Below the pieces are notes generated by a model. It was given only the letters and a program-made list of their open reading frames with translations. It did not search any database and was not told the origin of the DNA. From Prorocentrum cordatum (lineage: Eukaryota), in NCBI GenBank assembly GCA_963575745.1, contig CAUYUJ010000329.1, forward strand, positions 1 to 64,000: a DNA stretch of 64,000 nucleotides. The letters run 5' to 3'. The position numbers and the translations under genes are program-made. Positions 44,641 to 64,000 of the stretch are shown piece after piece (the stretch's first letter is position 1; each line of letters begins with the position of its first letter).

Positions 44641-45200
44641 AGGTCCACGTTCACGACCGCGTCGGTGACGACCACGACCACGACGGCTACGAAGACGACC
44701 ACGACCACGTTTTCGACGGCGACAACCACGACCTCCACGGAGACTCGACCTCCCCCATGCGAGCACACATCGCCGACCCCTCCCTCTCCTCCGTCAATTT
44801 CCCAGATCTTGCGGCTATCGGCTGCGCCTCCCCCTCTCCCCCCCCTACTGCGCAGGGCACTCTCTCAGCAGGGCATGGGCACAGCCCACAGGTTGTGCCA
44901 TGTTCCCCCCGCGCCGTGCAAGGAGAGCCCCCCCAGGCTGAGGCTGAGGCCACCAACGACCCCCCCCCCTCCAGCAGGGCCAACAGGCCAGAGGAAAGGA
45001 GTTGGAAGTTTCGGGGGAGGTGGCGGAGGCCGTGGAAGCCGCGGAACATCCCCCTCTGGATAATCAGCCCGCCAGCAGTCCTCCGGGGGAGCCACGCGCT
45101 CGGCAGGGAGACCACAGAGCTGCCACCCAGACGCGGGACACCGAAGCCATGCGCCGGCTCGTCGAGAGAAATCTCTTCGCGCCTAACCATGAACCTCGGA

Positions 45201-45669
45201 GAATAACCCCCCAGGGATAGTAAAGTTCTGGGTTTTCGGGGAGATAATAAAAGTTGCCCGCCAGAGCCAGCATAAAAGATATATCAAGAGGAAAAAGCCG
45301 AAGATATCTTGAGGATTGTCTCGGTTGAGACATCCTCAACGAATTGCTTGTTTCGCCTGAGACATCCTCGAAATATTTGTCTGTTTCGCTTGAGGGATCT
45401 TCAATGTATTGCTTATTTCGCTTGAGACATCCTTGAGGGAGGAGGAGGAGAATGAGCAAGAGGAGGAGAGGAGAAGGAGATAGCAACAATCCAAAGTTTA
45501 AATATTTTTAGATTTAATTTTCAAACGCTTGAGGAACATTCAAATGTTTATGCTCGTGTAGGGTAGCTCGCGCGCCTCGTTTTCCCAGGATAACCAACCC
45601 CAGCGATAAACAAGTTCAGGGCGCCAGAGGGAGGAGGAGGAGGAGAAAGCGACAGAGAGACAGAGAGGG

Positions 45670-45733
<64 letters not shown>

Positions 45734-46023
45734 CAAAAAAAAAAACTGAGACAGAGAAACAAAGAAAAAGAGACAGAACTAACTACAAAGAGACAGAAGG
45801 ACATCGGTTTCGCTTGAGACATCCTGAAACAACGCGTTCGCTTCGCTTGATGTTGTTATCTCAACAGAAGAAGGAAGTAACCTCGATGGCGAGCTTTTCC
45901 CGCGATAATAATGAAGTTCGGCCTCCGCGCCCCCGCGCCCCCGACCAAACTCTTATTGGTCGACGATAAAGAACTCCAACTACTTAAGGGGGGTGCATTA
46001 TTATCGTGGGCATGGGGTTATTC
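45201..46023. mobile_element. AT-richer MITE-like insertion containing an (AG)n tract
   Basis: Inverted ends gaataacccc / ggggttattc; internal ttgagacatcct repeats; (AG)n at ~45675-45730. No clear TSD. Confidence 0.55.
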
Positions 46024-48169: not shown

Positions 48170-49710
48170 GTGCGAGGGCTGCAGCGCCGCGGCCGACTGG
48201 GACCAGTGCTGGTGCTACGTGCAGGGCGGTCCCAGCCGGAACCAGGCCCTGGGCTCCATCGTGGTCGGCGAGACGCGCATGTAGGGTCCTCGGCTGTCTG
48301 TGTCGCTTGGCCCGCCTTCGCCTCCCCTTCCTCCAGTATTCATTTGATTTGCGGCTATCGGCTGCCCTCCCCCCCTCCTCCACGCACGCGGAGGTGCTGA
48401 ACATCCGACGACTGGCGGCCTTGTCTGGTGGCGTTTCCCCCCACCAGGCAGGCGCCTTCCCCCCTGACTACATTCCGACTGCGCCATGTGCCATGGAGTC
48501 GCACGAGGGCTGCAGCGCCATGGCGGACTGGGACCCGAGCTGGTGCTACATGCAGGGCGGTTCCACTTGCAACCAGGCCCTGAACTCCACCGTGGTCGGC
48601 GAGACGCGCAAGTGGCGCGAGTGCGGCTCCTACATCTGCATGACGGATTGGAATTTCGATGGCAATGCCGACGGGGTTATGGAGCCTACGAGGGCCGCAG
48701 CGCCGCGGCCGACTGGGACCAGAGCTGGTGCTACGTGCAGGGCGGTTCCAATTGCAACCAGGCCCCGGGCTCCACCGTGGTCGGCGAGACGCGCAAGTGG
48801 CGCGAGTGCGGCTCCTGCAACTGCATGGCGGAATGGAACTACGACTGCGATGCCGACGGGGTCATGGAGTCGTGCGAGGGCTGCAACGCCGGGCCGTCTG
48901 GGATCAGAGCTGGTGCTACGTGCAGGGCGGTTCCAACTGCAACCGGGCCCTGGACTCCACCATGGTCGGTGAGACGCGCAAGTGCGCGAGTGCGGCTCCT
49001 GCGACTGCATGACGGGTGGAACTACGTTGGCGATTCCGGCGCTGACGAGGGTTGCAGCGCCACGGCAGACTGGGACCAGAGCTGGTGCCACGTGCAGGGC
49101 GGCCCCAATTTCAACCAGTATCTGAACTCCACCGTGGTCGGCGAGACGCGTACTGGTGCGAGTGCGGCTCCGGCATTGGCATGACGGAGTGGAACTACGA
49201 TGGCGATGCCGACGGGGTTACGGAGTCGTACGTAGCTTGCAGCGCCACGGCCGACTGGGACCAGTGCTGGTGTTACGTGCAGGGCGGTTCCAATTGCAAA
49301 CAGTACCTTGAACTCCACCGTGGTCGGCGTGACGCGCAAGTGACGCGAGTGCGGCTCCTGCAACCGCATGACAGAGTGGGACCACGATGGCTTTGCCGAC
49401 GGGGTCATGGAGTCGTACGAGGGCTGCAGCGCCACGGCCGACTGGGACCAGAGCTGGTGCTACGTGCAGGGCGGTTCCTACTGCAACCAGGCCCTGGACT
49501 CCTCCGTGGTCGGCGGGACGCGCAAGCGGCGCGAGTGCGGCTCCCGCAATTGCATGACGGAGTGGAATCACGTTGGCGATGCTGTCGGGGCTATGGAGTT
49601 GTACGAGGGCTGCAGCGCCACGGTCGACTGGGACCAGAGCTGGTGCCACGTGCAGGGCGGTTTCAGCCGGAGCCAGGCCCTGGGCTCCACCATTGTCGAC
49701 GGGACGCGCA
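48170..49710 (+). pseudogene. Frameshifted tandem ~62-aa Cys/Trp-rich repeat protein (FN2/kringle-like WCY motif)
   Basis: About 8 units of ~186 bp reading CMTEWNYDGDADGVMESYEGCSATADWDQSWCYVQGGSNCNQALDSTVVGETRKWREC; the frame changes between units. Confidence 0.7.
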
Positions 49711-50943
49711 TGTTGGGTCCTCGGCAGTCTGTGTCGCCTGGCCCTACGCCTCTCCTTCCGTCATTATTCACCATCCCGCTGCTCGACGCCGACGACCTTC
49801 CCCCCAGACGCGCCCCTGGCCACGCTTTGTTGGGTCCTCGGCAGTCTATGTCGCCTGGCACACCTGCGCCTCTCCTTCCTCCAGTATTCACCAGATTTGC
49901 GGCTATCGGTTGCGCCCCTCCCCCCCTGCGGTGCTGAGCCCGCCAGTCGGCTTCCCCCCCACAGTGCTACGTCTTCGCGCACGCTCCAAAGTGGTCACTC
50001 CTTCCACGCGGCAGGGCGCGCCCGGTGGGGCACTGGCAGGTGTGCCGTGGAGGCTGGCTTCCTGTACAAGTGGTGCATCGTCGGCCTTCCCCCCTGTCTC
50101 GTCCTGGGCCACGCTCTGTTGGGTCCTCGGCAGTCAGTGTCGCCTGGCCTCCTTTCCGACCTCGCCATGTTGGGTCCTCACGTCATTTCCTCAGGTGCCT
50201 GGTTCAGTGGAACCCGCTGCGAGCGCTCCGTGAGTGAGACTCGAACACGTGAGGTGTTCTGTGAGTGAGGCCTGGTTTCCTCCCCCCCCCCTCGTCGCCG
50301 CCCTCTCTCCTCGCGTTGAGCTGGCGCCGTCTCGGCGACTCCTCACATTCTCGACGCTAAGATGCGTCTCCCTGAAGACGACGACCTGTATTGGGGCTGG
50401 TCGGGTTCCGCTTTGTACCGGCCCATGAATTTATTTTGTCGTGTTGAGCTGGCGCCGTCTCGGCGACTCCTCGCTTCCTCGACGCCAAGATGCGTCTCCC
50501 TGAATTTAATTCATTTTGATATGTGCATGTGCACTCCGGCGTTGGCTTTTGGCCCGCTGGCAATTATCTTGCGTGCTGCCCCATGCTCGATGCGACCCGT
50601 TCTCTGGAATCGTCCTTGGAGCCGCAGATCAAAAAAGTATCCCCGCGGCTGAGTCTTGCGAAGAAGTGCGGCAGTTGCGGGCAGGGTCGGGCCATGGTGA
50701 CCGTCAGCTCTGGTGCCTGCTTCAGCGCAGCTTCCCCCAGGTCGCCTCGCCCCATGGCAACGTTACACACTTGCTTGAACATGCGCCACACGTGCCCCGG
50801 GATGTGCAGCCAGCTCTGTATACTTGTGGATTTGCTTGTCCCTGGCTCAGTTTGGCGTACCTCAGGCGGCAACACTACCACCAGTGCAGCACCCTCCTAC
50901 ATTCCTCTACCTCGCTGGCGATGCTCACCACGCCGGCTGCCGC

Positions 50944-51140
50944 TGTGAATAGAACCCGTGTAATACCCTCATATATACTCCTTATCCTTACCTCTCCTGC
51001 GCCTGGCCGTTTGGGCTCAGGTATTGGGGCAGATCGATCAGACCTTTGATCGTGCAGGAGGGAAAGACATCCATCTATCCCTCCTTCCCTCTACCAACGG
51101 ATCAGGGGTTCTGTACCCTTGTACTTCAACCCCATACACA
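50944..51140 (+). repeat. Candidate 5' LTR (197 bp) of the copia element
   Basis: Starts TGTG and ends CACA, with TATATA at 50972-50977, and sits immediately before a PBS-like motif. The 3' LTR is outside the window, so this is unconfirmed. Confidence 0.6.
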
Positions 51141-51153
51141 GGTTATCAGCCCT
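51141..51153 (+). promoter_or_regulatory. Primer-binding site, half-tRNA (Ty5/copia, Hemivirus) type
   Basis: GGTTATCAGCCCT directly after ...ACA; one mismatch to GGTTATGAGCCCT, the complement of the initiator tRNA-Met anticodon stem-loop used by Ty5. Confidence 0.65.
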
Positions 51154-51684
51154 TTAAAGCTCCCCTTTCACCGAACCGCGCGTTGCGACCTCGCACGCGG
51201 TCTCGATGGGGCCCCTGCGGCGCATGCGCCGCAAGGGGTCCATCGGGGCCTCGCGTCCGAGCTCTCCGACGGCGCGACGGCTCGGTGACGAGTTGGAGAG
51301 CCTTAGTGCGGACTGTGTTGGTGTTCCAGATACCCCCCCCCCCCAGCTCCGACGGACCCGAGGCGCGGCTAGCTGCTGAGCTTCACCGCAGCGCCGCCCG
51401 CGGGGGGACAGGAGAAGGAGTAGGAACAGGAAGGAAGGAGTTCCACACGCCTACCTTCGATCCTCCATCCCCTCCCCCGTCGGGAGCAATCCCAACCGCG
51501 TCAGGCGAAAGCCTCACTGGTCATGACACTCCAGGGCGCTTTCGCGCTAACCGCCGATGGACCTCAGGTGCTGGTACCCCCAGCCCTGCGACCGTCCCCG
51601 TGGCGGAGCACGTAGCCACCTTCGAGGAACTCAGTAGACCAGTGGCGGCACAGCCGCAGACGCAGTACCCCAAGGTATCATCGG

Positions 51685-52960
51685 ATGAGACACCACACGC
51701 ACATGGTCCGAGTCGCAGCTCGTCCGCGCGCAACCGCCGTGGAGCCCCAGGCCCATACGGCGAGAGTAGGTCGAGCCCGCGTACTGCTTCTCAGAGGCCA
51801 TGCACTCCCCGTGACAGGGGACACAGGGAAGCTGACGCTCCCCACCTCTCCATCTCAGACGACCATAGTTGAGCTCAGAGACCAGGTTGAAACCTTCGTG
51901 TCCAGGCAATGCTCTGGACTACTGCAGAGCGTTCAGACGAACGCCGCCGACACTGCAGCCATGCGCCACGATCTGGACGGCGCCTTAGGGATCATTGATT
52001 CCAGGATCGCTGAAGATCGACGCATCATAGGTGAACTGCAGTACCAGGTTGATCGTGAGGTGTCACACTCAGGTGAACGAACGGCGATGGTCGAGAACCT
52101 GCGCAATTACCTCGCGCAGATGGAGCAACAGCTTGTGCTCGTACGCGACACAGGCGTTTCAGCAGTCAGGATTTTACATGATGAGATCCACGACCAGCTC
52201 CGCAACCGACCAACACCAGCCGAGGCCACCGACCTTGGCGACGTTCAGTCTCGGATCAATGATCTTCGATCTTACCTAGACCACACTACGGCGACGCTTC
52301 GCAACGAAGCACACGCCAACTCGTCGAACCTGATCGACATGTTGCAGCGTACTGAGAGAGTCATCACTCAAAGGCTTGATGCGACCAACGCTGTCGTGCA
52401 GCCGCTCGCTAACCGGATCTCTGACATCGAGCGGCGTTTTCCTGGTGTGCAGGACGCCCTGGCAGAGTTGCGTGTCGGACGAGCCCAGACTGGCCAGCTG
52501 GATTCTCCTCCCACGGTTTACGATTTCGCCCGCTTCACTGACAGGTTGCAGGAGGTTGAGAAGGCGGCGGACCACACGCAGTTGGAGCTCTCCCAGGTTA
52601 TTCGTGAAAGAGATACTGAGAAGGTACGTGTAGAGGGTCACCTCGCACGTCTGGAAAGCGAGCTGGAGGCACAAAGCGCCCGTCTCCGAGCATACGAGCA
52701 ACGACTTGATCGGTATTCACAACGTTCTCGGGATACTGATGAGTATACACGCCAAAAGGTGGCACAAATACACGAAGACATGGCGAGCTGGACGAATCAG
52801 CTGATCGACCACACCAACGACACCAATCTCCACCTTCGACCTGCAACCGACCTGCACAGGCCGACGGCAGCGTCCGCCGAAGCACACAAGCTTCTGCAGG
52901 ACAACAACGACGTACGTCACCAGGAGCAGCCTCCGCGGCAGCTTCTGCACAGACACGCCA
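51685..52960 (+). CDS. Coiled-coil N-terminal extension of Gag (frameshifted relative to the gag-pol ORF)
   Basis: Heptad-like L/E/Q/R-rich sequence at ~51870-52830; the true start is uncertain. Confidence 0.6.
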
Positions 52961-52961
52961 T

Positions 52962-55900
52962 GTGTCTCCTGTGCGCACAGAACCAACTACTGACGGTGCA
53001 CCGATACCCTCACAACCACTGTCTGCGGTTTCGGTCCATACTACAACTCCTATCAAGGAGTCAGACACCGTCCGAGTCCCTGTCTTGCCTAAGATCACGC
53101 AGCTGCTCGAGTGGCAGCAAAAAGTACGGAAGAACTTCGGGGCCGCCTCAGGGCGACCATCCAAAGCATACGCCTTCCTATGCGTGGCTGAACAGCCCGA
53201 ATGTACATTCGAGGACTTACAAGACAGTGGAGACTTTGAGAGCATCGATTGCAAACTCGCTACCGCTCTGAGCGACATCTTATCCTCGGACTTACGCTAC
53301 CAAATCAGGCTCATCGAAACTAGAGAGCACAAAGCAGGACGCATGCTCAAAGGACGCCAGATTTACTGGCACATCCTACAGTCCTACAAAGTGACAGAGG
53401 TTGATGACGACCTGCACGATTTCGAGCGCCTTAAAGAACTGAGGATGAGAGATGACGATTTGCAACGTTTTATTACTGACTGGGACGCTTTACTCTTGGA
53501 GTGCCGAGAAGCACCCGATCCAAAGATCTTGGAATCGCTGTTTCGTATACAGATTCGGAGACATGTATGGATGAAACAAGACATGTACGAGTACCAGCGC
53601 ATGAAGATGAGCGACCCGAATCGTACCTACGATTGGCTCCGACAGCGTGTCCTGGACATACTGGAGCTTAAACAATTGGAGAATAATCAAAACAAGTTAC
53701 GGTACGAACATGAGACACGTTCTCAAGTCAACGTGTGCGCTGCCTGGAAGAAAGGCAATTGTCGCAGTGGTGAACGGTGCAAGGCTTTGCATATATATTC
53801 CAGGGATTGGAAGAACAACAAATCTTCCAGAACATCGACGGCTGGTGGCAACTCCCGCCGCAGCATGTCCACTCCTGCGAATCACAAGAAGCCAACATCG
53901 AAACCATTTTGCTTTGATTTCGCCAAGCGCAACACATGTACCAGAGGCGATAAGTGTAACTTTCCACACGTCGCACAGTGTAAAGATTTCGCACATAATA
54001 AGTGCCCAAGGGGCGACAAATGCAAATACGCTCATCTTACACCTGGTGCAAAGACTCCTGAGCGAAGCCCGAGTCGACCACGGACCTCCAGCCAGGATAG
54101 CCGTGGCCGATCACCATCCCGCGGATCAGGAAGCCAACCTTCTTCGCAACGCCTGGGGTTCCGCTACGCAAGCGACTCGCGCCATGGACGTGACAACCGA
54201 CGCCAATACGACCGATCTCGTTCAACATCCAGGAGGTCCCCAGACTCTCGCAGTCAATCGAGAAGTCGATACGACAGATCTTCGAGATCTACCTCCCGAG
54301 GGCGAGACAATCGTGGCGGCGGACGCGGTAGTCCACGCGGCCGTGATAGATCATATGGCAGTGGCAAAGGACGTGGCAGACGTTCCTTGAGTCATGGTTC
54401 GCCCCGTGGCTCACCCCACGCCAGAGCACGTTCTCCTGCCAACTTTCGACGTTCACGCCGTTCCGACCGCAGTTACGTCATCCGTGACAAGACCCTCATG
54501 GCCAACACCAAGGCCACAGCGACATCTACCAAAACACGTCGTCGGATACGCTTCGACATACGTAACGTGGAATACTATTTACATACCGTATCTGGCAGGG
54601 CCAGATTGGATAAATGGAAAGAGATGCCGAACGAGGGTGACATCGTCAATGTACCAGACCCGTTACCACAACGATGGTGGGATCAAAGTGCGGATGCCCT
54701 ACGAGCATGTCAAAAAGAGGCACAGCTATGGTACTCTGACCTATATGGCTACCGACACAACAAAGAGTCGGTGGCCACACCAACTGCGATCCGAAAATAT
54801 GACGACCCTGTTAAGCAGTCATCAAAGACAGTCCAGACGAAGACAACGACAATGCAAGTCGACCCACCACGCTCGACTGCTGCATTGACACGGTCTTGGG
54901 TTCTCGACAGTGGTTCTGCTCATCATATTCAGGGAAAACATGAACTAACGCAGACCGAATCGGATCGCATATCTATTCGCGAAGAGCATATTCTGGAAAC
55001 CGCCAATGGTGATCGTACTGTCAACGAGCACTACGACATACGGCTACCCGAGGTCGGCTTACACAGTTCAGCCCTTGCATTGCCAGACTGTCCATCTTTA
55101 CTATCAGTTGGGAAATTGATCGAAGTTGACGGCTTTCGGCAGCTTTGGGATCCTGAGCTGGGCTACTTGCTTCAGGATCCGGGGGGCCAATGGTATAATA
55201 TTCCAGTCAACAATAGAGCTCCAGAATTACGACTCGACGACTTGACACTGATACCACCACCACGTTTATGCACTTCGTCAGCACCCCGACGTCGTCAGCG
55301 CAAGCGTTCATCCGCCCGCTGCAACGACATTTGTTGGTGCTGCAAAACTACAGAGCAGTCAACCACTGCAGACGAGCTACGGCCCCACATAGGGACCTGC
55401 CCCAAGAGACCACATGTCGGAGAGGGAGGAGGGGCACGGACCACCACGGTCGAAGAACCTCCCGACAAAAACACAGACGAGCCTAACGTGGACACACCCA
55501 CCGACTCGCCTACGTCTCAGACGCAGCGTTCTCCTCCACAATGCGGGGGGCTAATAGATACAAGTCAAGCAGATAACGACATACCGACAGAGACGCCCAC
55601 GCGAATGCATCGCGACAATGATCGAGTTCTCCCCAACAGACAGAAGAAACCGATCGACCCGATGCATTACATGACTCACAGCCCAAAACACCCTGACTGT
55701 GAGATCTGTTCTCGTACGATGGCGCAGAATGCCCCGTGTAGACGACAGCGCAAACCACATCCGCCGGCAGACCCCACCGACGAGGATAACGCCTACGAGG
55801 CTTTTGTCCCAAAGAAGTTTGGTGAGGCTTTAACTGCCGACCATATCGTGCTGGCCAAAGACGATGCCGCGGACAAACACGGCGACAAGTATGCACTTGT

Positions 55901-57374
55901 TGTCCTAGACAGATACACCGGCATCTTCATGGCCTACCCAGCACTGCACAAAGACGCAGCTACCACAAAGGCATCCTTTCAACAGTTCATCGCCGCGAAC
56001 GATGAGGTGAAGCATATCTATACAGACAATTCTGGAGAGCTTCAGAAAGCTCGCCGCCAACTGGGATGGAGACACGACGCGAGTACGCCACATCGTCCGC
56101 AAACGAATGGATTGATTGAGCGCGTCGTCAAAATTGTCATTCTCGGTGCGAGAGCTGTGTTACATATGTCTGGTCTGGGACACGAATGGTGGAAAGAGGC
56201 CATGCAAGCCTTTTGCTGTGGACACAATTTTGTGCATGCATCTACGGGCGTGGCTGCCCTCAATGAAGAGCATGCAGATAAGACAGCTCATGAAATGCGA
56301 TTTGGCGAAAGCTTTCCCGGGCACTGCATACCATTCGGTGCTCGGATCTTTTGGAAATGCCTCAACCCCGGGATTAACAACGAGACTGCAAAGTTTAAAG
56401 AGAATACTCGGGAAGGGTTATTCATGGGTTACCACTTACATTCTGGTGGACGATGGTCAGGTGACTATCTTGTTTTGGATACGGCTACATACGCCAGGAA
56501 TCCTGATGGTGAACTGTGTCACGTGCACAGAGTCAAAGACATCATCATCCCTGATGGCAAGTTCACCTACCCAGTGAAAGAAGGTACTCTACGACATCAT
56601 AACACTGAGGCACACGACGAGGTCAAGGCATCCACATCTCGCCCCTTGGGTGATAAACCAATGCCCGATCCTCCACTTTCCTACCCTAAAGAATGGGATG
56701 ACCCATCTATGATGACAACGGAGGACAACGCCGCTGATATCCAAACATCGGCCTCTGAAGTTGCTGCACCAGCGCCGGAGCCCGACTACTGGGAACAGCG
56801 CGGATATTGCGTCATCAGACATATTCGTACTCCACGCAAGAAACTGTTCATCCCGACGGACGAAGTCATGAACATACCTGTACCTGTTGATCAACTCGAC
56901 GTGACACGAGATTTCAAGACAACTTCTACTTTTGAAGGAGAAAGTGACTTTCGAGATGTTTGGGATGGTGTTAGCGCCAACGACCACAGGGAGTTAAGCG
57001 AGCCGTGGACAGGCACGATTCAATTCTATGAGCTTCCAAAAATGACGCCAGACGGCAAAATGGTGGTTCGCGGACGCGAGACACGTATACAGACTACTAC
57101 ACGCCCTGATCACATTCTTCCCGAGCATTGGAAAACACTCTCTCGTGGACAACAAAAGAAGGAAATCGATTACGCCAACAATGTTAAACGGGCTCGTGAG
57201 ATTCGTGACCGAGCTGCACTACGAGTGTGGACAAGGCAGGACAAACAGGTCAACAATTTCCGTGCCACCACATCTGGCGGACCCACATGGAATACTGTGG
57301 AACGACGGATTACATACGACACTGGCAATGGCGACGTCATCCGCGACGAAAACGTCAAAGGCGTGACGAAATAA
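52962..57374 (+). CDS. Copia Gag (3 CCCH fingers, RS-rich tract) - aspartic protease - integrase
   Basis: CCCH fingers 53736-54035; WVLDSGS (D at 54906); HYMTHSPKHPDCEIC (55665-55709); integrase D (TADH, 55839), D (TDNS, 56025) and E (NGLIER, 56118). Ends at an in-frame TAA. Confidence 0.9.
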   Translation: MSPVRTEPTTDGAPIPSQPLSAVSVHTTTPIKESDTVRVPVLPKITQLLEWQQKVRKNFGAASGRPSKAYAFLCVAEQPECTFEDLQDSGDFESIDCKLATALSDILSSDLRYQIRLIETREHKAGRMLKGRQIYWHILQSYKVTEVDDDLHDFERLKELRMRDDDLQRFITDWDALLLECREAPDPKILESLFRIQIRRHVWMKQDMYEYQRMKMSDPNRTYDWLRQRVLDILELKQLENNQNKLRYEHETRSQVNVCAAWKKGNCRSGERCKALHIYSRDWKNNKSSRTSTAGGNSRRSMSTPANHKKPTSKPFCFDFAKRNTCTRGDKCNFPHVAQCKDFAHNKCPRGDKCKYAHLTPGAKTPERSPSRPRTSSQDSRGRSPSRGSGSQPSSQRLGFRYASDSRHGRDNRRQYDRSRSTSRRSPDSRSQSRSRYDRSSRSTSRGRDNRGGGRGSPRGRDRSYGSGKGRGRRSLSHGSPRGSPHARARSPANFRRSRRSDRSYVIRDKTLMANTKATATSTKTRRRIRFDIRNVEYYLHTVSGRARLDKWKEMPNEGDIVNVPDPLPQRWWDQSADALRACQKEAQLWYSDLYGYRHNKESVATPTAIRKYDDPVKQSSKTVQTKTTTMQVDPPRSTAALTRSWVLDSGSAHHIQGKHELTQTESDRISIREEHILETANGDRTVNEHYDIRLPEVGLHSSALALPDCPSLLSVGKLIEVDGFRQLWDPELGYLLQDPGGQWYNIPVNNRAPELRLDDLTLIPPPRLCTSSAPRRRQRKRSSARCNDICWCCKTTEQSTTADELRPHIGTCPKRPHVGEGGGARTTTVEEPPDKNTDEPNVDTPTDSPTSQTQRSPPQCGGLIDTSQADNDIPTETPTRMHRDNDRVLPNRQKKPIDPMHYMTHSPKHPDCEICSRTMAQNAPCRRQRKPHPPADPTDEDNAYEAFVPKKFGEALTADHIVLAKDDAADKHGDKYALVVLDRYTGIFMAYPALHKDAATTKASFQQFIAANDEVKHIYTDNSGELQKARRQLGWRHDASTPHRPQTNGLIERVVKIVILGARAVLHMSGLGHEWWKEAMQAFCCGHNFVHASTGVAALNEEHADKTAHEMRFGESFPGHCIPFGARIFWKCLNPGINNETAKFKENTREGLFMGYHLHSGGRWSGDYLVLDTATYARNPDGELCHVHRVKDIIIPDGKFTYPVKEGTLRHHNTEAHDEVKASTSRPLGDKPMPDPPLSYPKEWDDPSMMTTEDNAADIQTSASEVAAPAPEPDYWEQRGYCVIRHIRTPRKKLFIPTDEVMNIPVPVDQLDVTRDFKTTSTFEGESDFRDVWDGVSANDHRELSEPWTGTIQFYELPKMTPDGKMVVRGRETRIQTTTRPDHILPEHWKTLSRGQQKKEIDYANNVKRAREIRDRAALRVWTRQDKQVNNFRATTSGGPTWNTVERRITYDTGNGDVIRDENVKGVTK

Positions 57375-57380
57375 GAAATA

Positions 57381-60300
57381 TTGTATGCCAAATTACCTGG
57401 TGGGCCACGTGACATTACTACGGTACTGTACTACCGCCAATCACCACAACAGCACGAACGCGCTTTGGTACTTGTGGATAGTGAAGGAACCGACTTTGGG
57501 ACCATGAACCCGCTTATACGCCAGTTCACCCAGTCGGTAGCAATACCAACTATGCCACGTGAGACCACCTACACACCGGCACACAGAGACAAAATACCCG
57601 ATTCCTCATGGTCACGCCCGGCCCTAGTTACCAGAAGCCTGAGTAAAAAAGAAGTTGCCGCAGAACCACGTGCACAAGAAGCCCTGCGAAAAGAATACGA
57701 GAGATTGGAAAAGAAACAAACGTGGATGTTGGAGACTGTTGCAGAAAAAGCTGATATTGAGTCACAAGCTATCCGCACTGGGACGAAAGTTCATTTCTTC
57801 AATATCTTGGAGCTATCTTCAGTCAAACACGAGGAACTTCCACCTGATCTACGTAAATTCAAGGGCAGAGTGGTGGTTCAGGGCAATACAGGCAAAGATG
57901 AAACTGGCTTGGCCGCAATATTCGCCGACGCCGCTTCCAGTGCTTCACATATTGAGGCTTCCAAACTTTGCGATGCTCCTGCATTATTGCCACAATATGC
58001 GGGAGAACAAAGTAATGCACCTGGAGCCTACACACAGGCATTATTATACGGCGACGGACGAATCGATCCAGTTGATACTTGGATTACCATCCCTAAGTGG
58101 CGACAACCGACATCCTGGTCAAAATACAAATATCCAGCGTGCCGATTGCGATTGGCTCTATACGGACACCCTCTCGCAGGTGTCTTTTGGGAACGAAAAT
58201 GCCGTACATGCTTAGAAAGCGTTGGTTTCGAGCCTATTTCAGGATGGGAATGTGTATGGAGACACAACAAACTGGGACTGATACTTTCAGTATATGTGGA
58301 TGACTTTAAATTAGCCGGCCCAGCTCACAATTTACAGACTGGCTGGGATTATATTCGCAAAAGCGGTATTGACTTGGATCCACCTACTCTATACTCGCAA
58401 TATCTTGGTTGTGGACAACAAGCATATGATGTACCGCAGACTATCTTCGACAAAAGAATGTCTACCATACGCCCTATGTTGCCCGTACACAATGAGAAAG
58501 ATTACAATACGGCCAAACAGGTTCGTGGAATTCGACATGATATGCTTGGTTTTACCGATCAGTGCATTGAGCGATGCCTGGAATGCGCCTCCAAGCGCGC
58601 CCAGGGACCAGGGTCACGTCGGAAACGATCCGACTCGCCGAGGACTCCGCGATCCAAACCGCCCGCATCCTCCGGGTCGGTCGCCAGACCTACTAGTGTG
58701 CTCAATGCACGGCCACGATCATCCAGCCCAGCAAAATCGGTCGACACGACATCTACCACGACAGATCCCATACCCGTCACATACGATGACCTACCTGACG
58801 CCGAAACTCCTGGCATCGAGGACACCTCCTTCACGGATTCCGACTATTCCGACGAGGGCATCCTTGGCCAGGACGCGGCGAGTGTACTAATGAAGATCCT
58901 ATACCTGGCACGTTGCTGTCGTTTCGATCTTCTACATCCAGTATGTATGCTGGCCAGAGAAATTACCAAATGGAATACTACGTGTGATAAACGTCTACAT
59001 CGGTTGATATGCTGCATCAAAACGACGCGTACACATTGTTTGCACGGATGGATAGGTGATTCGTCAGACAAGTTATCCATCATGCTCTTTACTGACGCCT
59101 CGTTCGCTGATTGCATTACATCATCCAAATCCACTACCGGCGTTTTTGCCGCGCTTGTTGGACCCAATACGTTCTTTCCAGTCACCGCTGTATGTAAGAA
59201 ACAAACGGTTGTCTCATATTCATCTACTGAATCCGAGATGATTGCTCTTGACTCAGCACTACGACTGGAAGGATTACCACTACTCTCATTCTGGGAAGCC
59301 GTGGTGGGAGTTGCCAAAACATGCAAAGAGAAGAATGCATGCCTGAGCTGCCATCGACACGCCGACCCGGCGATGCGTCCGACATTGGCAGCCAAAAAGA
59401 AGCGTAAGCCATCGCCTCGCAAGGCACCCCCTACACGGGGATCTTCTCCTAGCCGTAGGCAACTACCGCTAAATACGGAATTACCTACGCCTCCAAAGAG
59501 ACGTACAATATCCCATGAGGGTACAGTATTGCACGTGGATCCAGAACCGGCTCAGGAGATTAGTTCTCCCAAAGTGCGTCTTATCGTCCTCGAGGATAAC
59601 CAGGCCGTGATCAAAATTGTCCAAAAAGGACGTGCACCAGCACTTCGTCATCTTCATCGTACTCATCGTATCAACCTGGATTGGATATGCGAGACGTGCC
59701 AACTCGAACATATCGAGCTCAAATACGCAGGTACAAAGGAGCAGATCGCAGATATGATGACCAAACATTTCGAGACGAAGAAAGCAGACCTTTGGAAGGA
59801 TCTCTTGGAACACTCGCTCATCTTTCCCGCTACCCCGATACAGTGTCCTCCAAAGAAACCCTGGAAACCACTGCGAGGGCCTCGGAGGCCCGATGGTTTA
59901 CCTCATTTTGCGGAACCTCCAAAACTGGATGGATGCCCGGAAGTATGCAAAATATTACTTACAGAAAAAGAAGGATGGGGCGAAGTAGGATCAGAATGTG
60001 GATTTCGGTGCGTTGGGCAATCCAATCACGAGGGAATATGCGCATGCATGTACCACATTGGCGTACCGGCCGCAGCTATTGCGTCGCGCACACTTCGTTC
60101 ACGCGCACGTTCCCCGCACGGTAGACATCCCCGCCATCCTCCCTCGCCTCCACAAGATGCAGAGAGATTTAGGACATTACTTTTACGTTCATGCCGCAGC
60201 AATTTTACGACTCGAGCTACAAAGCTTACAGGCATTCTATTCGCCACGTGCGAGGCGAAAATAAGCGAGATCGGTTCTAATCCCGACACCCCCATCCACA

Positions 60301-61115
60301 ATATGGATCAGGCACAGCCGCTCAACCTCATCGGCTGGCCCATCGGCTACGACACGGAGTACGACCCGAACGCCAAGGACGACGACCGCGTGGGCTTCAC
60401 GTACCACGCTCAAATTGGCAGTCCTCGTGATCCTGATGATGGTTACATATACATACATCAACGGCGTGCCGATCGCAGTGGAGAGTTTGATCTCCGCGTG
60501 CCCGACGAATCCACTATTCGAGAAATTACCCGCTCTGCGTCCGCCGACGCCAAGAGTTGGATCAATGACACGAGTGGATCAGTCGGCGGCAACGCCAACT
60601 ATGACTACAGCACATTTACAGCTACACCGTGGCTATCATTCATGCGGGCTATGTGTATGCTTTCCAGTCTCTTCAATCGTAATCCGTCTGTACAAGAAAG
60701 TGTTCGTGGTCTACATGATCATTTGAACGCGGTGATCCCAGGAACGCACCGCAAGTGCCCACCAGAGAACTTTACGACGATGATATTGAAAACGGAGTGG
60801 ATGATGATTCACAACGATTGGTCTAAGATTGGCAGTGCAGTATTGGGACAGTATGCCGAGGACAGCGTTCAGGATACACAAATGTACTATTCAAATGGTC
60901 TTTGTGCACCATCCGATGTATACAGCAATGGGTTGATAACTCCATGCTATGCTCCTAAACTTGATCGTACAACGGCCAAGTTACCTACACGCCCACCTGG
61001 CGTAGCCAGGACATCAGATACATCTGGACACACCGGCCACATTGTTGAGGATAATTTGGTCACCAACATGAGAGCATACCAAGCAACTTTCGCCGCAAGC
61101 TCACCACATGGTTGA
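57381..61115 (+). CDS. Copia reverse transcriptase - RNase H, fused to a Cys/His motif and an unknown C-terminal region
   Basis: FKGRVVVQGN, LYGHPLAG and YVDD (58293); RNase H FTDASFA, SSTESE, EDNQA and ADMMTK. Same frame as the upstream ORF. Confidence 0.9.
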   Translation: MYAKLPGGPRDITTVLYYRQSPQQHERALVLVDSEGTDFGTMNPLIRQFTQSVAIPTMPRETTYTPAHRDKIPDSSWSRPALVTRSLSKKEVAAEPRAQEALRKEYERLEKKQTWMLETVAEKADIESQAIRTGTKVHFFNILELSSVKHEELPPDLRKFKGRVVVQGNTGKDETGLAAIFADAASSASHIEASKLCDAPALLPQYAGEQSNAPGAYTQALLYGDGRIDPVDTWITIPKWRQPTSWSKYKYPACRLRLALYGHPLAGVFWERKCRTCLESVGFEPISGWECVWRHNKLGLILSVYVDDFKLAGPAHNLQTGWDYIRKSGIDLDPPTLYSQYLGCGQQAYDVPQTIFDKRMSTIRPMLPVHNEKDYNTAKQVRGIRHDMLGFTDQCIERCLECASKRAQGPGSRRKRSDSPRTPRSKPPASSGSVARPTSVLNARPRSSSPAKSVDTTSTTTDPIPVTYDDLPDAETPGIEDTSFTDSDYSDEGILGQDAASVLMKILYLARCCRFDLLHPVCMLAREITKWNTTCDKRLHRLICCIKTTRTHCLHGWIGDSSDKLSIMLFTDASFADCITSSKSTTGVFAALVGPNTFFPVTAVCKKQTVVSYSSTESEMIALDSALRLEGLPLLSFWEAVVGVAKTCKEKNACLSCHRHADPAMRPTLAAKKKRKPSPRKAPPTRGSSPSRRQLPLNTELPTPPKRRTISHEGTVLHVDPEPAQEISSPKVRLIVLEDNQAVIKIVQKGRAPALRHLHRTHRINLDWICETCQLEHIELKYAGTKEQIADMMTKHFETKKADLWKDLLEHSLIFPATPIQCPPKKPWKPLRGPRRPDGLPHFAEPPKLDGCPEVCKILLTEKEGWGEVGSECGFRCVGQSNHEGICACMYHIGVPAAAIASRTLRSRARSPHGRHPRHPPSPPQDAERFRTLLLRSCRSNFTTRATKLTGILFATCEAKISEIGSNPDTPIHNMDQAQPLNLIGWPIGYDTEYDPNAKDDDRVGFTYHAQIGSPRDPDDGYIYIHQRRADRSGEFDLRVPDESTIREITRSASADAKSWINDTSGSVGGNANYDYSTFTATPWLSFMRAMCMLSSLFNRNPSVQESVRGLHDHLNAVIPGTHRKCPPENFTTMILKTEWMMIHNDWSKIGSAVLGQYAEDSVQDTQMYYSNGLCAPSDVYSNGLITPCYAPKLDRTTAKLPTRPPGVARTSDTSGHTGHIVEDNLVTNMRAYQATFAASSPHG

Positions 61116-64000
61116 CGGCGCGCGGAGGCTTTGGAGGTATCGGATCATACCCCAAGACGGTGGCAACACCATCCGATCATCCAGAAGGCTGGGTGGCAAT
61201 ATCAGATCATGACGGGGATATGACAAGTACCTATCGTTGGCAACCATACAACGAGGGCAACGACTTCTTTGGCGAAGCCGCTGACCAGATCGGCCAGATC
61301 GACCCTGGTCTTACCCCTGGCCCTGATGTTGACCCACTCGAGCTGGACCAAGCAAAGTGCAGCGCTTTCTGTGGTGGTCGTTTGGTTTCTACTCTTCTTT
61401 CAGATAATGGGTGGTGTTCCCTCGTACAAGAAGACTTGGGACTACTCTTGCATCATGCATTTGGTCCATCAGGGCACGCGTACAAATGGACCAACTTATA
61501 CACCGACTCAACGTGGAGTATGCAGGCCAAGAAAGGGGCCAAGAGTGCAAAACACAAGAAGTACCCAACTTACGGCATCGACGAGCTCAACACTGCACAG
61601 AAGCGAGAAGATCTCGCCAAGGCATCAAACGTTGCTCTCGTACCGCTATTTATGCCGTGCCTCAACCGCGCGGAATACATGGGCGGCGCTACTCTCGAGC
61701 ATTTGTCGACCATGATCCGCGACGACATCATGATGTGGGCATTCTCCTTTGGCAATTATAAAGAATGGTTCAGACAGAACGACACGCCGATCGGCCAAGA
61801 TTGCGTTCGATTGCCAGAGGCTGGTGGAGACACCCGCTATGGTATGGAAGAACTGCGTAACCAGCGTTTCGATACACAAGAAGCCCGTACCACAGCTATT
61901 CTCAACGACCAGTATGAGTGCACTCTCGAGCAGCGCAACATGATCAGGATGATCCGCGAAGCCAGAGGCCTCATGTTACACAGCGACAATCCCTCCATCA
62001 AAAAGTGGCGCGAGTTAAACGAGACTTTTTGGAGCTACTGGGCCAATGATTTTCCAGCATATGTGAAACAAAGACATTATTGCAGGGGCCTCAATGCCAT
62101 GGTGGCATGGAGCGCGAATGACATCGCATGCGCCAACCACGGACAGAACACCGCGGACATGCGTCGACATCAGAATCGTGCACCTACTGACGTATATGAG
62201 CTCCAGAAATGGAATGTGAGGGTGGCGTCCCGACGCTCATGCCAGTACACGTACACGTGGACGTATCACGTTTTGTCGATGTGCTGCAGTACTTCCGCTG
62301 TCCCACAGTCGTGGGGCCTGGCAAAGCAGCACAATGGGGCGTACATCCGAACTTTGATCACCACACGAACGACCTGATCAATATTATGCAAAATCGTGGT
62401 ATCACTGTTCTTCCATCAGATCACTGGGTGGAAGCGTACGATAGGATTACCCCGCAGGCTTGGCATGCAAAACAGAACAACCATAACATGGCGATGTTTA
62501 CAACACAGTTCCGCGACGCAGTATGCTATCGTAACTTCTGCGCTTTGATTCAGTCACTGCCCTCTCAACCATATCCATTCAGGGCGCCATTATTGATTCC
62601 TGTCACGGATGAGCAGGCCTACACACAGGCCAAAGAGATCATGGCTGCTCTCGACTTCAGAGAAAGGATGACAAACGAATGGAAAAGAGATCACGACGCG
62701 ATGACACAGACGGCAAGCGAAATGGCTCATTGTGCGTGGATGGCATCATGTGCCGATGGTACGTTGCCGGCATCACTCCCTGCTGACGCAGGCGACACAA
62801 CGGAACCTATTCCTGGAATGCCGAAACGGACACCAGCACCTGATCCTAGCGAGCCAGACAAAGCTATCCCTGAAAATGATCCATGGGGTGTAGCGTACGA
62901 CGACTTATTCAACGACTATCAACGACTATCCTGGGGCTTGGGCATCCTGGCATTCAGTCGAGAAACAAGAGCTCCTCCACCCCAAGATCATTAAAACGGT
63001 TGAAGATGCACATGCAGTTACTTGGGTTGTGTTCGAGCAGTTTTTACAACAGATTACTGACTTGGATGGAGATGATAACGCGACCAAGTCACGACTCACT
63101 GCGGAAAACAACAGGTTGACTTCTCACTGTATCGGCCCTGCTGCCGAGAACGAGCGGACCATCATAGCATGCAAAACTTTCTTCAGGCAGAATGCACTAG
63201 ATCGCGTGGCATTGGGATATGATCCTGATGTTCCGACGTCCGTGTGGCGTGCGGCGGCTGATACAGAACAGCCAGCCCCACCAGGCCCATTGCCTGACCC
63301 ACTGCAACCTGGACCGCAATCGATAGACGTGCCACAGCCATCGACTCCTGGACCAACAGCAGACCAGCAGCCAGCAGATCAGCTCCCAAAAGCTGAGGCG
63401 GTACCGATCCCTGACAACGGCACTGACCTAGAGGCCATGGAGCTGGAGGCAACTCCTGCCGAAGAGGAATCTTCTCCACACGAGATGAATTTATTATCAT
63501 GGCAGGACAGCTGCGAGCGTTCCATGTATGAGGACATCAGCCAGGTCGGGATGTTCGATAACGCATGCACTATTCGAGAGTGGAAGCTGCAAGCAGGCAT
63601 CAAGGATGACCATCCGTACGTATGTCCAGTATTGCGGGGTACATCCGCGATCAATGGATTCGCCTGCCTGGACAACAAAGACTGGTACGAGCAACTGTTA
63701 CACGATGATTGTGTGATTGCTCACGCGCCTGATATCGCACAGTCTGGTTGCTTTCCAGAATGGAAGTGGATATCGCTACCAAAATTACGACGACGTACGT
63801 TATGGTCCCGAGTTAATTGATGATGAATGGCTGGGAGCAAACAAATACATGAGCAAAGACATCGCGACCATGTTACGCCACGAGATTCACTACAAAAAGT
63901 TCTATATAAATCAATTTCACGATAGACGGGTCAACATTTGGACGAAAACAACAGATCGTGAATGGAAGATTCCAAGCAATTGGAAATCCTTTCAGGAAAT
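61112..64000 (+). CDS. Extra post-pol coding region (frameshifted pieces 61112-62210, 62209-62994, 63029-63820, 63717->64000); SGNH-like domain and possible Tpt1/KptA start
   Basis: Consecutive long, high-complexity ORFs that abut or overlap; motifs YTDST, GGAT, WSAND, WH and MSKDIATMLRH. Confidence 0.6.

What the first reader, a model, noticed from the sequence alone, without database searches (positions are those of the whole stretch)
59820..64000. Giant copia retrotransposon carrying >4 kb of non-retroviral cargo downstream of RNase H
Seen: the RT-RH frame does not stop after ADMMTK. It runs ~430 more codons, and coding continues through frameshifted ORFs to the window edge with no 3' LTR, so the element exceeds 13 kb. 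Established: typical Ty1/copia elements are ~5-7 kb and end soon after RNase H; known 3' extras are mainly env-like ORFs in Sireviruses. Inference: this is a dinoflagellate copia lineage with a large enzymatic accessory module (globular, no evident TM helix), either fused to Pol or starting at MDQAQ (60303).
Basis: partly seen in the sequence, partly recalled or inferred. Interest (0 to 1): 0.85.

Follow-up and report, generated by a model that had tools for sequence, protein, structure and literature searches.

The report
Giant copia retrotransposon with orphan extra protein
A decayed copy of a very abundant, more than 13-kb copia-type jumping gene from a dinoflagellate-like alga carries, straight after its normal replication genes, a further protein-coding region of at least 1,230 codons that is conserved in distant relatives but resembles nothing of known function.

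Summary
After the RNase H end (ADMMTK, 59748-59765) the pol frame stays open to 61115. Same-strand ORFs in shifting frames then run to the window edge, with no LTR copy before 64000.

The frame shifts are lesions of this copy. Relatives read across the ~61080 and ~62206 shifts in one frame, and contigs in public runs carry an extra base at 62206-62208.

The extra region is one long ORF, at least 60303-64000. It has 49 relatives among 1.84 billion representative proteins, the best at about 35-43% identity over about 730 residues.

It travels with the element:
- Overlapping protein fragments link RNase H, a Cys/His-rich linker and the cargo start in one frame.
- The whole 50.93-64.0 kb stretch is a high-copy repeat in four runs.
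- Its composition matches pol.

Function is unknown. There is no Pfam, PHROGs, NCBIfam, PDB or Atlas match and no hydrophobic segment. AlphaFold models are poor and mostly helical or low-confidence. "Enzymatic" is unsupported.

Neighbouring genes say dinoflagellate, although the closest fragments carry a Pyramimonas label.

Verdict: a new variant of a known kind, an LTR retrotransposon with an additional ORF.

The parts
50944..51140 (+). Candidate 5' LTR (starts TGTG, ends CACA), followed by a PBS-like GGTTATCAGCCC at 51141-51152. Tentative.
   Evidence: Summed contig depth jumps in bin 50934-51400 in all four runs. The termini were read directly. No second copy exists in the window, so this is unconfirmed.
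51616..53271 (+). ORF1, a coiled-coil-like N-terminal protein that overlaps ORF2 in another frame.
   Evidence: only weak coiled-coil-type Pfam hits. Some contigs carry an extra C behind 52884 that would put ORF1 and ORF2 in one frame: by depth X1 198/1149, X2 834/3000, X3 18/18, X4 72/72.
52743..57371 (+). gag-protease-integrase part. It holds three CCCH zinc fingers (53736-54035), a DSGS protease motif at 54906 and the integrase core at about 55872-56099.
   Evidence: Pfam: zf_CCCH_4 33.7 bits (cut-off 29); rve 25-26 bits (below the 32.6 cut-off).
57372..57374 (+). In-frame TAA between the integrase and RT parts, probably a lesion of this copy.
   Evidence: Two X1 contigs show other letters just before 57373 (loose ends). 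This is weak evidence.
57375..59765 (+). RT (YVDD at 58293-58307; RVT_2 match about 58137-58409) and RNase H motifs (59088-59765, ending ADMMTK).
   Evidence: Pfam RVT_2 E 1.8e-4, 21.6 bits, below the 31.6 cut-off. The RNase H motifs were read directly and compared with recalled Ty1/copia motifs.
59766..60302 (+). Conserved linker in the pol frame. It holds a Cys/His cluster, C-x3-C-x17-C-x3-C-x6-H-x3-C-x-C-x2-H, at 59934-60056.
   Evidence: 20 fragments at 56-89% identity tile 59712-60446 in one frame. The Cys/His columns are kept in the fragments that cover them.
60303..61079 (+). Cargo part A (from MDQAQ), in the pol frame.
   Evidence: P0001 residues 13-278 align here at 35% identity. Fragments P0053 and P0070-72 also align.
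61085..62206 (+). Cargo part B, in another frame. The frame-shifting lesion lies at about 61040-61090.
   Evidence: 49 relatives. P0001, P0034 and P0035 cross the shift in one frame, and P0013, P0026 and P0030 start at MRAF just before it. Loose ends at 61077/61091 in X2 and X3.
62209..62918 (+). Cargo part C. This copy has a 1-nt deletion at about 62206.
   Evidence: P0001, P0003, P0010, P0022 and P0037 cross the shift in one frame. Contigs carry an extra base at 62206-62208: all depth in X2, X3 and X4, and 22/117 in X1.
62919..63817 (+). Cargo part D (ORF 62894-63820). It includes a Pro/Gln-rich stretch and a Cys-containing C-terminal part.
   Evidence: Loose ends before 62918 in X1, X3 and X4 mark the indel. 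Depth stays high. No homologue search was left for this part.
63717..64000 (+). Cargo part E, open at the window end.
   Evidence: Depth in bin 63543-64000 is X1 290, X2 1212, X3 37, X4 45, against 18, 53, 0.25 and 5.9 in the flank bin 50000-50466.

Best explanation
Window 50.94-64.0 kb is the 5' and central part of a dead copy of a very high-copy LTR retrotransposon family of at least 13 kb, of Ty1/copia organisation. The host carries dinoflagellate-type genes.

Beyond RNase H the element continues through a conserved Cys/His-rich linker into one long additional coding region. This region runs from about 60303 to beyond 64000 (at least 1,230 codons) and has no detectable relative of known function.

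This extra region is part of the transposing unit and is amplified with gag-pol. The window copy has broken it with at least four frame-shifting lesions.

Inferred, not shown: the cargo is made either as the C-terminal part of the Gag-Pol polyprotein and cut off by the element's protease, or from the ATG at 60303. It is a mostly helical and low-complexity, non-membrane accessory protein that serves the element's own cycle (particle assembly, nuclear or chromatin targeting, or blunting host silencing) and is not an enzyme. I put about 0.7 on 'integral, selected part of the element' and well under 0.3 on any particular function.
For: 1. Continuity. RNase H, linker and cargo part A share one frame without a stop. 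There is no LTR copy anywhere in 50000-64000.

2. Independent junction evidence. 20 of the 23 fragments found with 59730-60752 tile 59712-60446 in a single frame. P0066 spans the RNase H end into the linker. Eight fragments start at or next to MMTK. P0050 covers 59838-60272. P0053 runs from the linker (60096) through MDQA into the cargo (60446) at 62% identity.

3. Repeat unit. With contigs of four runs laid at >=85% likeness (14473, 9025, 1251 and 1732 pieces), summed depth rises from 46/223/1.5/7.6 to 3373/5566/91/113 at bin 50934-51400. It never returns to flank level up to 64000. No pile of loose ends or joints appears at 59.8-60.3 kb.

4. A real, constrained protein.
- 49 relatives among 1.84e9 representatives.
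- P0001, 749 aa without a stop, aligns at 35-43% identity to 60321-62478.
- P0003, P0010 and P0022 align at 35-53%.
- Invariant motifs are seen, such as FPA.VKQ.H and VD..RF.

5. The shifts are lesions. Relatives cross the 61080 and 62206 shifts in one frame, and contigs carry an extra base at 62206-62208. Five other fragments have frame shifts of their own, as expected for a decaying repeat family.

6. Composition. GC3 is 0.50-0.58 in the cargo and 0.45-0.51 in pol, while the flanking DNA is 0.59-0.70 GC at 40-50 kb. AT skew is positive from 52 to 64 kb.

7. Not a duplication of pol. No internal similarity at E<0.05.
Against: - The 3' LTR was not seen because the window ends first. Membership of the cargo in the LTR-bounded unit is therefore inferred, not shown.
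- Summed depth over the cargo is only about 0.3 (X1) to 0.6 (X3, X4) of that over pol. This could mean that many pol copies lack the cargo, although the tool warns that this depth is not a copy number.
- Logan contigs are short (130-410 nt in the rows shown), so no single record bridges pol and cargo.
- Only one fragment (P0053) plus the window crosses the linker-cargo junction.
- All close fragments come from one source data set.
- Three fragments end exactly at ...SEI (60272), and P0001 starts with M near the MDQAQ position on a 2265-nt contig. This fits a separate ORF at least as well as a fusion.
- No full-length or pol-fused relative exists in the protein collections.
- Both AlphaFold models are poor, so 'helical, non-enzymatic' is weakly based.
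Confidence: 0.7

Rival explanations
1. Composite of two repeats. The copia element ends soon after RNase H, and the cargo is an unrelated repeat or gene family beside it or around it (nested insertion or preferred target). The composite was then copied, or is repeatedly re-created.
For: - Cargo depth is only 0.3-0.6 of pol depth, with steps near 59.8 and 60.7 kb.
- P0001 begins at the cargo start, not in pol.
- Three fragments end at 60272.
- Neither the 3' LTR nor target-site duplications were seen.
Against: - No LTR copy or any other repeat boundary lies between 59.8 and 60.3 kb.
- 161 conserved linker codons continue the pol frame into the cargo.
- P0053, a copy at 62% identity, has the same junction.
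- No pile of loose ends appears at one place.
- Composition equals that of pol.
Confidence: 0.12
2. Transduced cellular gene. The cargo was captured from a host gene by read-through or template switching, as retroviruses capture oncogenes, and has since been carried along. The divergent ENA relatives (P0001, P0003, P0010) are then cellular genes of other protists.
For: - The divergent relatives sit on short contigs with no pol seen.
- The cargo shows no similarity to any retroelement or viral family.
Against: - According to the review passages read (PMC7264820), transduced ORFs occur in one or a few copies. Here the cargo is a high-copy repeat in four runs.
- No relative longer than 749 aa and none carrying a name or a Pfam domain was found.
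- GC3 is element-like, not flank-like.
Confidence: 0.1
3. Env-like or virus-derived surface protein, as in Sireviruses, errantiviruses or rotifer elements, giving the element a virus-like extracellular or cell-to-cell phase.
For: - Position and orientation (sense, between pol and the expected 3' LTR) match those of env-like additional ORFs (PMC7264820 passages; PMC5408684 abstract).
- Long predicted helices are present.
- The C-terminal end lies outside the window and could hold a membrane anchor.
Against: - No hydrophobic 19-mer above Kyte-Doolittle 1.18 occurs in about 1,230 visible codons or in P0001.
- No signal-peptide-like start follows MDQAQ (direct reading).
- No match in viral structure or contig collections.
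Confidence: 0.05
4. Assembly chimera. The pol-cargo junction in this contig is an artefact of collapsing two repeats.
For: Both parts are high-copy repeats, which are prone to mis-joins.
Against: - Protein fragments from another data set tile the junction in frame.
- A 169-nt X1 contig spans 59778-59939 (table 8).
- The frame is continuous across the junction.
Confidence: 0.03

Closest known systems
Ty1-copia-like LTR retrotransposons of Symbiodinium microadriaticum (SmTCL1-4). Source: PMC5776459, main text read.
   Same: Copia organisation (integrase upstream of RT, then RNase H, LTR-flanked), in a dinoflagellate, abundant and large. SmTCL3 full-length copies are given as about 10 kb.
   Different: That paper describes only integrase, RT, RNase H and LTRs, with no extra coding region. 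The unit here is at least 13 kb without its 3' end and carries at least 3.7 kb of extra ORF. I could not compare sequences. Its supplements were not read.
LTR retrotransposons with sense additional ORFs between pol and the 3' LTR (env-like aORFs of plant elements; Sireviruses among Copia). Sources: PMC7264820, passages; PMC3414828, search listing only.
   Same: The extra ORF is in sense orientation, downstream of pol, and present in many copies, not just one.
   Different: No transmembrane segment and no env-like features in the part seen. The ORF is longer (at least 1,230 codons). In this copy it is in frame with pol through a conserved linker. The host is not a plant.
Bdelloid rotifer LTR retrotransposons with varied ORF3 (env-like, GDSL esterase, DEDDy exonuclease, dUTPase). 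Source: PMC5408684, abstract.
   Same: Modular capture of a third coding unit behind pol by LTR elements.
   Different: Those ORF3s have recognisable families. This cargo matches none. The elements there are retrovirus-like lineages, not copia.
Retrotransposons with a captured enzyme inside the Pol polyprotein (SymbioDIRS-Dnmt3, KnitGypsy-Dnmt3). Source: PMC5890265, passages.
   Same: An added module shares an ORF with RT and is kept across copies. One example is from Symbiodinium.
   Different: Those are DIRS, LINE and Gypsy elements carrying a DNMT domain. The paper states that Symbiodinium Copia elements lack a DNMT. Here no methyltransferase or any other domain is detectable.

Membership tests
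Ty1/copia (Pseudoviridae-type) LTR retrotransposon | Reverse transcriptase of the copia (RVT_2) type | tested here: inconclusive
   RVT_2 is the only RT family hit (E 1.8e-4, 21.6 bits), but it is below Pfam's 31.6-bit cut-off. A YVDD motif lies at 58293-58307.
Ty1/copia (Pseudoviridae-type) LTR retrotransposon | Integrase encoded upstream of RT (order PR-IN-RT-RH) | tested here: met
   DSGS at 54906, rve core at about 55872-56099, RVT_2 at about 58137-58409, RNase H motifs at 59088-59765. The rve score of 25-26 bits is below its 32.6 cut-off.
Ty1/copia (Pseudoviridae-type) LTR retrotransposon | RNase H domain after RT, ending in an AD..TK-type motif | tested here: inconclusive
   The motifs FTDASFAD, SSTESEM, EDNQAV, RTHRINLDW and ADMMTK were read from the frame and match copia RNase H motifs as I recall them. 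No library model or solved structure confirmed this.
Ty1/copia (Pseudoviridae-type) LTR retrotransposon | Two long terminal repeats with a target-site duplication, PBS and PPT | not testable with these tools
   Only a candidate 5' LTR (50944-51140, TGTG...CACA) and a PBS-like 12-mer were found. The 3' end lies beyond the window, no genome is held and no related loci were found.
Ty1/copia (Pseudoviridae-type) LTR retrotransposon | Gag with nucleic-acid-binding zinc knuckle(s) | tested here: met
   Three zinc fingers lie at 53736-54035, but of CCCH type (zf_CCCH_4 33.7 bits, above the cut-off of 29), not the usual CCHC knuckle (recalled).
Sirevirus / env-like additional-ORF elements | Extra sense ORF between pol and the 3' LTR, present in most copies | tested here: inconclusive
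   The sense ORF behind pol is shown. It is high-copy in four runs. 'Most copies' cannot be counted from summed depth, where the cargo is 0.3-0.6 of pol.
Sirevirus / env-like additional-ORF elements | Env-like features: transmembrane segment(s), signal peptide | tested here: not met
   The maximum 19-residue Kyte-Doolittle mean is 1.18 in the visible cargo and 0.97 in P0001. The unseen C-terminal end remains untested.
Transduced host gene (oncogene-like capture) | [quoted passage not shown] | tested here: not met
   The cargo region is a high-copy repeat in X1-X4, with 49 cluster representatives. No cellular parent was found, but eukaryote genomes could not be searched.
   No hit in Pfam at E<=10 beyond noise, PHROGs, NCBIfam, PDB sequences or the Atlas (27, 64). 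Fold search on a poor model gave only generic helical bundles, best Z 5.5.

The most novel reading that the evidence does not exclude
A dinoflagellate copia lineage has permanently added a large orphan protein of at least 1,230 residues, plus a zinc-binding-like linker, to its polyprotein. Intact copies may then encode one of the longest retrotransposon proteins known: more than 3,700 codons from 52743 to beyond 64000, or more than 4,100 if ORF1 is joined. The module would be a new class of retroelement accessory protein adapted to the unusual dinoflagellate nucleus, for example for targeting or escaping its histone-poor, base-modified chromatin silencing, and conserved across lineages that have diverged to about 40% identity.
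Probability: 0.15. Interest if true: 0.8.

Novelty: new variant of a known kind. Interest (0 to 1): 0.55.

Why it matters
[quoted passage not shown] They are discussed as drivers of dinoflagellate genome growth and stress-induced variation (PMC5776459; PMC11453091 passages).

A conserved 3.7-kb-plus orphan coding module carried by such a family has three consequences:
- It adds a new, testable accessory function to the copia repertoire.
- It would explain part of the unusual size of these elements.
- It is a practical annotation issue, because thousands of fragments of this ORF will be called as 'hypothetical proteins' of the host. All 49 + 23 relatives found here are unnamed apart from numeric source ids, and most are short fragments.

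The four literature searches returned no description of such a cargo in copia elements of dinoflagellates. That covers only the open-access library searched.

Tried and rejected
- **Own genome:** none is held, so the contig could not be extended and copies could not be counted.
- **Related loci:**
  - The trimmed alignment A2 and the single protein found nothing in metagenome contigs (both scans used).
  - A2 found nothing in viral contigs.
- **Longer or similar-length relatives of P0001:** none besides itself. This is weak evidence, since only 8000 word-sharing candidates were scored.
- **Function by sequence:** Pfam, PHROGs, NCBIfam, PDB by sequence and by profile (19, 52; the only row was Ataxin-7 at E 1.1, which is noise) and the ESM Atlas (27, 64) gave nothing usable.
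- **Function by fold:**
  - The AlphaFold model of P0001 with 52 rows had mean pLDDT 48.4, with only about residues 480-620 (helices) confident.
  - VIA-align wide gave a best Z of 5.5 to de novo helical bundles, below the level the tool calls meaningful for helices.
  - BFVD gave TM<=0.10.
  - The model of 62209-62991 with 6 rows had mean pLDDT 56.6. I did not search with it because a poor model gives meaningless matches.
- **RNA evidence:** no RNA holder was listed among 19 runs, so expression, splicing and a possible subgenomic start near 60303 could not be examined.
- **Earlier findings of this scan:** nothing relevant.
- **Internal duplication of pol as the source of the cargo:** rejected.
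- **Tpt1/KptA-like reading of the motif SKDIATMLRHE in 63717-63998:** a recalled resemblance, with no Pfam support at E<=10. Dropped.
- **Codon-position analysis of the differences:** not done. Only 40 of 1817 places were shown, and they are mostly private changes of this dead copy.
- **Coincident fragment ends as proof of a stop after ...SEI:** rejected as proof. Other coincident ends (59942, 59984, 60260) occur where other fragments read on, so unitig breaks can explain them.

Full report
**1. What is in the sequence**

On the + strand, stop-to-stop ORFs run almost without interruption from 51.6 kb to the window end:
- 51616-53271
- 52743-57374
- 57375-61115, in the same frame as the previous one and separated from it only by TAA at 57372-57374
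- 61055-62377
- 62200-62994
- 62894-63820
- 63717-63998, open at the window edge

Pfam places the following:
- Three CCCH zinc fingers at 53736-54035 (zf_CCCH_4, 33.7 bits, above its cut-off).
- An integrase core at about 55872-56099 (25-26 bits, below the cut-off).
- An RVT_2-type reverse transcriptase at about 58137-58409 (21-22 bits, below the cut-off).

I also read directly a DSGS protease motif (54906), YVDD (58293) and a series of RNase H-like motifs ending in ADMMTK at 59748-59765. Their likeness to copia RNase H is recalled, not tested. The order PR-IN-RT-RH is the copia order.

The four downstream ORFs have no Pfam match.

**2. No LTR before the window end, and where the repeat starts**

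Neither repeat finder nor blastn of 50000-64000 against the whole window finds any duplicated stretch that could be an LTR pair.

I laid the contigs of four public runs on 50000-64000 at >=85% likeness (runs found). This gave 14473, 9025, 1251 and 1732 pieces.
- Summed depth is 18/53/0.25/5.9 in bin 50000-50466.
- It jumps to 3373/5566/91/113 in bin 50934-51400.
- It stays at 290-880 (X1), 1112-2657 (X2), 37-92 (X3) and 45-120 (X4) over 59.8-64.0 kb.

The repeat unit therefore begins near 50.94 kb and is still running at 64.0 kb, so it is at least 13 kb.

At 50944 the sequence changes character and starts TGTG. At 51140 it ends CACA and is followed by GGTTATCAGCCC. I offer this as a candidate 5' LTR and PBS, unconfirmed.

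**3. The extra region is one real, conserved ORF, broken in this copy**

- The 440-aa ORF 61055-62377 has 49 relatives at E<=1e-3 (34 at <=1e-10, 7 at <=1e-30) among 1.84 billion representatives.
- 48 of them are 60-333 aa. One, P0001, is 749 aa and lies on a 2265-nt ENA contig.
- tblastn shows P0001 residues 13-746 aligned to 60321-62478 in three successive window frames, at 35, 40 and 43% identity.
- 12 of the 49 relatives align in more than one window frame and 37 in one.
- P0001, P0034 and P0035 cross the shift near 61080 in one frame of their own. P0013, P0026 and P0030 start at MRAF just before it.
- P0001, P0003, P0010, P0022 and P0037 cross the shift at about 62206.
- Five others (P0020, P0028, P0029, P0040, P0047) shift where the window does not, so they are other decayed copies.

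The laid contigs agree:
- An extra base sits at 62206-62208 in all depth of X2 (179+132+66 of 376), X3 (10/10) and X4 (12/12), and in 22/117 of X1.
- Loose ends mark other letters at 61077/61091 (X2, X3) and before 62918 (X1, X3, X4), which are the places of the other frame changes.

So the 'frameshifted ORFs' are one ORF of at least 1,230 codons (60303 to beyond 64000) with copy-specific lesions.

The copy also has the TAA at 57372.

At 52884 some contigs carry an extra C that would join ORF1 and ORF2. By depth this is 17% of X1, 28% of X2 and all of X3 and X4 (one contig each). Whether that is a lesion or a frameshift site of the family I cannot tell.

**4. Does the cargo belong to the element?**

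Evidence for:
- *(a)* There is no boundary. The pol frame continues through 161 linker codons into the cargo.
- *(b)* My last homologue search, with 59730-60752, returned 23 short fragments at 56-94% identity. By tblastn, 20 of them tile 59712-60446 in one frame.
  - P0066 runs from ELKYVGTKEQIADMMT (RNase H end) into the linker.
  - Eight fragments start at or next to MMTK and reach 59942-60035.
  - P0050 covers 59838-60272.
  - P0053 (62% identity) runs from 60096 through '...SREIGSNPDPPIPGMDQASP...' to 60446, that is, from the linker into the cargo without a stop.
- *(c)* The linker is conserved. It holds a Cys/His cluster (C-x3-C-x17-C-x3-C-x6-H-x3-C-x-C-x2-H, 59934-60056), kept in the fragments that cover it with one C-to-H change.
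- *(d)* There is no pile of loose ends or joints at 59.8-60.3 kb.
- *(e)* GC3 of the cargo pieces (0.50-0.58) is like pol (0.45-0.51). It is unlike the flanking DNA, which is 0.59-0.70 GC at 40-50 kb. The positive AT skew runs from 52 to 64 kb.
- *(f)* The cargo is not a diverged duplicate of pol.

Evidence against, or limiting:
- Cargo depth is only about 0.3-0.6 of pol depth. The tool says this depth is not a copy number, but copies without cargo cannot be excluded.
- Contigs are too short for a single bridging record.
- All close fragments come from one source data set.
- The 3' LTR is unseen.

I put 0.7 on the cargo being an integral part of the transposing unit.

**5. Fused to Pol or separate?**

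This remains open.
- The two sequences that cross the junction, the window and P0053, are open.
- All contigs in all four runs read GAG instead of AAT at 60300-60302, which is not a stop.
- However, P0050, P0055 and P0062 all end at ...SEI (60272).
- P0001 also starts with M about where MDQAQ lies, with at most 18 nt of contig before it.
- Coincident fragment ends also occur at places where other fragments read on (59942, 59984, 60260). Unitig breaks could therefore explain the SEI ends.

**6. What does it do?**

Nothing recognisable was found.
- No Pfam, PHROGs or NCBIfam family.
- No solved-structure relative by sequence or profile.
- No Atlas neighbour.
- No viral contig.
- AlphaFold with the 52-row family alignment gave mean pLDDT 48.4, with only a helical stretch (P0001 about 480-620) confident. 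Its best structural matches are de novo helical bundles at Z 5.5, and BFVD matches have TM<=0.10.
- The model of 62209-62991 is also poor (pLDDT 56.6) and helical.
- No hydrophobic segment is present (maximum Kyte-Doolittle 1.18).

An env-like membrane protein is not supported in the part seen.

My working mechanism is inferred. The cargo is an element-encoded, soluble, largely helical or disordered accessory protein. It is released from the polyprotein or translated from 60303, and it acts in particle formation, nuclear or chromatin targeting, or defence evasion.

**7. Host**

- ORF 43518-45203 encodes tandem chlorophyll-binding units (Pfam E 2.9e-45, two stretches; 558-574-nt DNA repeats).
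- Its 10 best solved relatives are all PCPI/acpPCI chains of dinoflagellate photosystem I. The following ones are fucoxanthin-type, and no green-lineage LHC title is among the 57 listed.
- Two spliced-leader-like 21-mers (3 mismatches each) occur where none is expected in 100 shuffles (the motif is recalled).
- This supports a dinoflagellate host.
- Yet all 23 closest linker/cargo fragments, and the one close cargo-body fragment I looked up (P0002), are labelled Pyramimonas sp. CCMP1952 by their source. I leave this conflict open.

**8. Comparison with the known**

- Large copia elements are described in Symbiodinium (SmTCL3, about 10 kb), with only IN, RT, RH and LTRs mentioned (PMC5776459, main text).
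- Sense additional ORFs between pol and the 3' LTR are a known feature of some LTR retrotransposons, often env-like (PMC7264820, passages).
- Rotifer elements carry varied ORF3s (PMC5408684, abstract).
- DNMT domains have entered Pol polyproteins of DIRS, LINE and Gypsy elements, while Symbiodinium Copia elements are said to lack them (PMC5890265, passages).
- Four literature searches and the passages read in PMC11453091 and bioRxiv 10.1101/2022.04.12.488082 gave no description of this cargo.

It is thus a new variant of a known kind: a copia element with an unusually long, orphan, in-frame additional coding region.

**9. Verdict**

- Interest is 0.55. The architecture is real, conserved and unusual, but the kind is known, the function is unresolved and the 3' end is unseen.

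Noticed in passing
window 43518-45203 (+): ORF of 562 aa with tandem chlorophyll-binding (LHC) units, over DNA repeats spaced 558-574 nt. Its best solved relatives are dinoflagellate PCPI/acpPCI antenna proteins, so this is a light-harvesting polyprotein gene of the dinoflagellate type.
   Followed up: partly
window 27437-27457 (-) and 29444-29464 (+): Two 21-mers with 3 mismatches each to the dinoflagellate spliced leader (motif recalled), where 0 are expected in 100 shuffles. They may be relics of retroposed mRNAs.
   Followed up: no
window 53736-54035 (+): The gag-like part of the element carries three CCCH-type zinc fingers (Pfam zf_CCCH_4, above its cut-off) instead of the CCHC knuckles usual in retroelement Gag, as I recall them.
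   Followed up: no
window 59934-60056 (+): A conserved Cys/His cluster, C-x3-C-x17-C-x3-C-x6-H-x3-C-x-C-x2-H, lies directly behind RNase H and is kept across diverged copies. It may be a zinc-binding module, but it has no Pfam match.
   Followed up: partly
proteins P0002, P0050-P0072: All 23 closest linker/cargo fragments, and the one close cargo-body fragment whose source I looked up (P0002), are labelled Pyramimonas sp. CCMP1952 (EukProt EP00959), a green-alga name. The window's neighbouring genes are of dinoflagellate type. The cause could be mislabelling, contamination or a shared element. Unresolved.
   Followed up: no
window 50000-64000, runs X1-X4: Pieces >=99% alike to this copy occur in two differently named organisms (X1 4525, X2 1798) and in two metagenome runs (X3 245, X4 297). 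The family therefore has very recent copies and is widespread in marine samples.
   Followed up: no
window 40377-42043 and 48097-49744: An array of about 16 tandem units of 88-89 nt lies at 40377-42043, and a family of repeats spaced about 185 nt lies at 48097-49744. Both are GC-rich and just upstream of the element. A (GA)n tract lies at 45617-45744.
   Followed up: no
window 16505-16654 (-): ARAGORN calls three mutually overlapping tRNA genes (Ser, Lys, Leu) in a region of strong GC skew. These are probably spurious or a tRNA-derived repeat.
   Followed up: no
window 37141-38391 (+): Weak nucleotide-sugar transporter match (E 4.9e-6, 26.3 bits, just below the 27-bit cut-off) in an ORF with GC3 0.78. 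It is probably an exon of a host gene.
   Followed up: no
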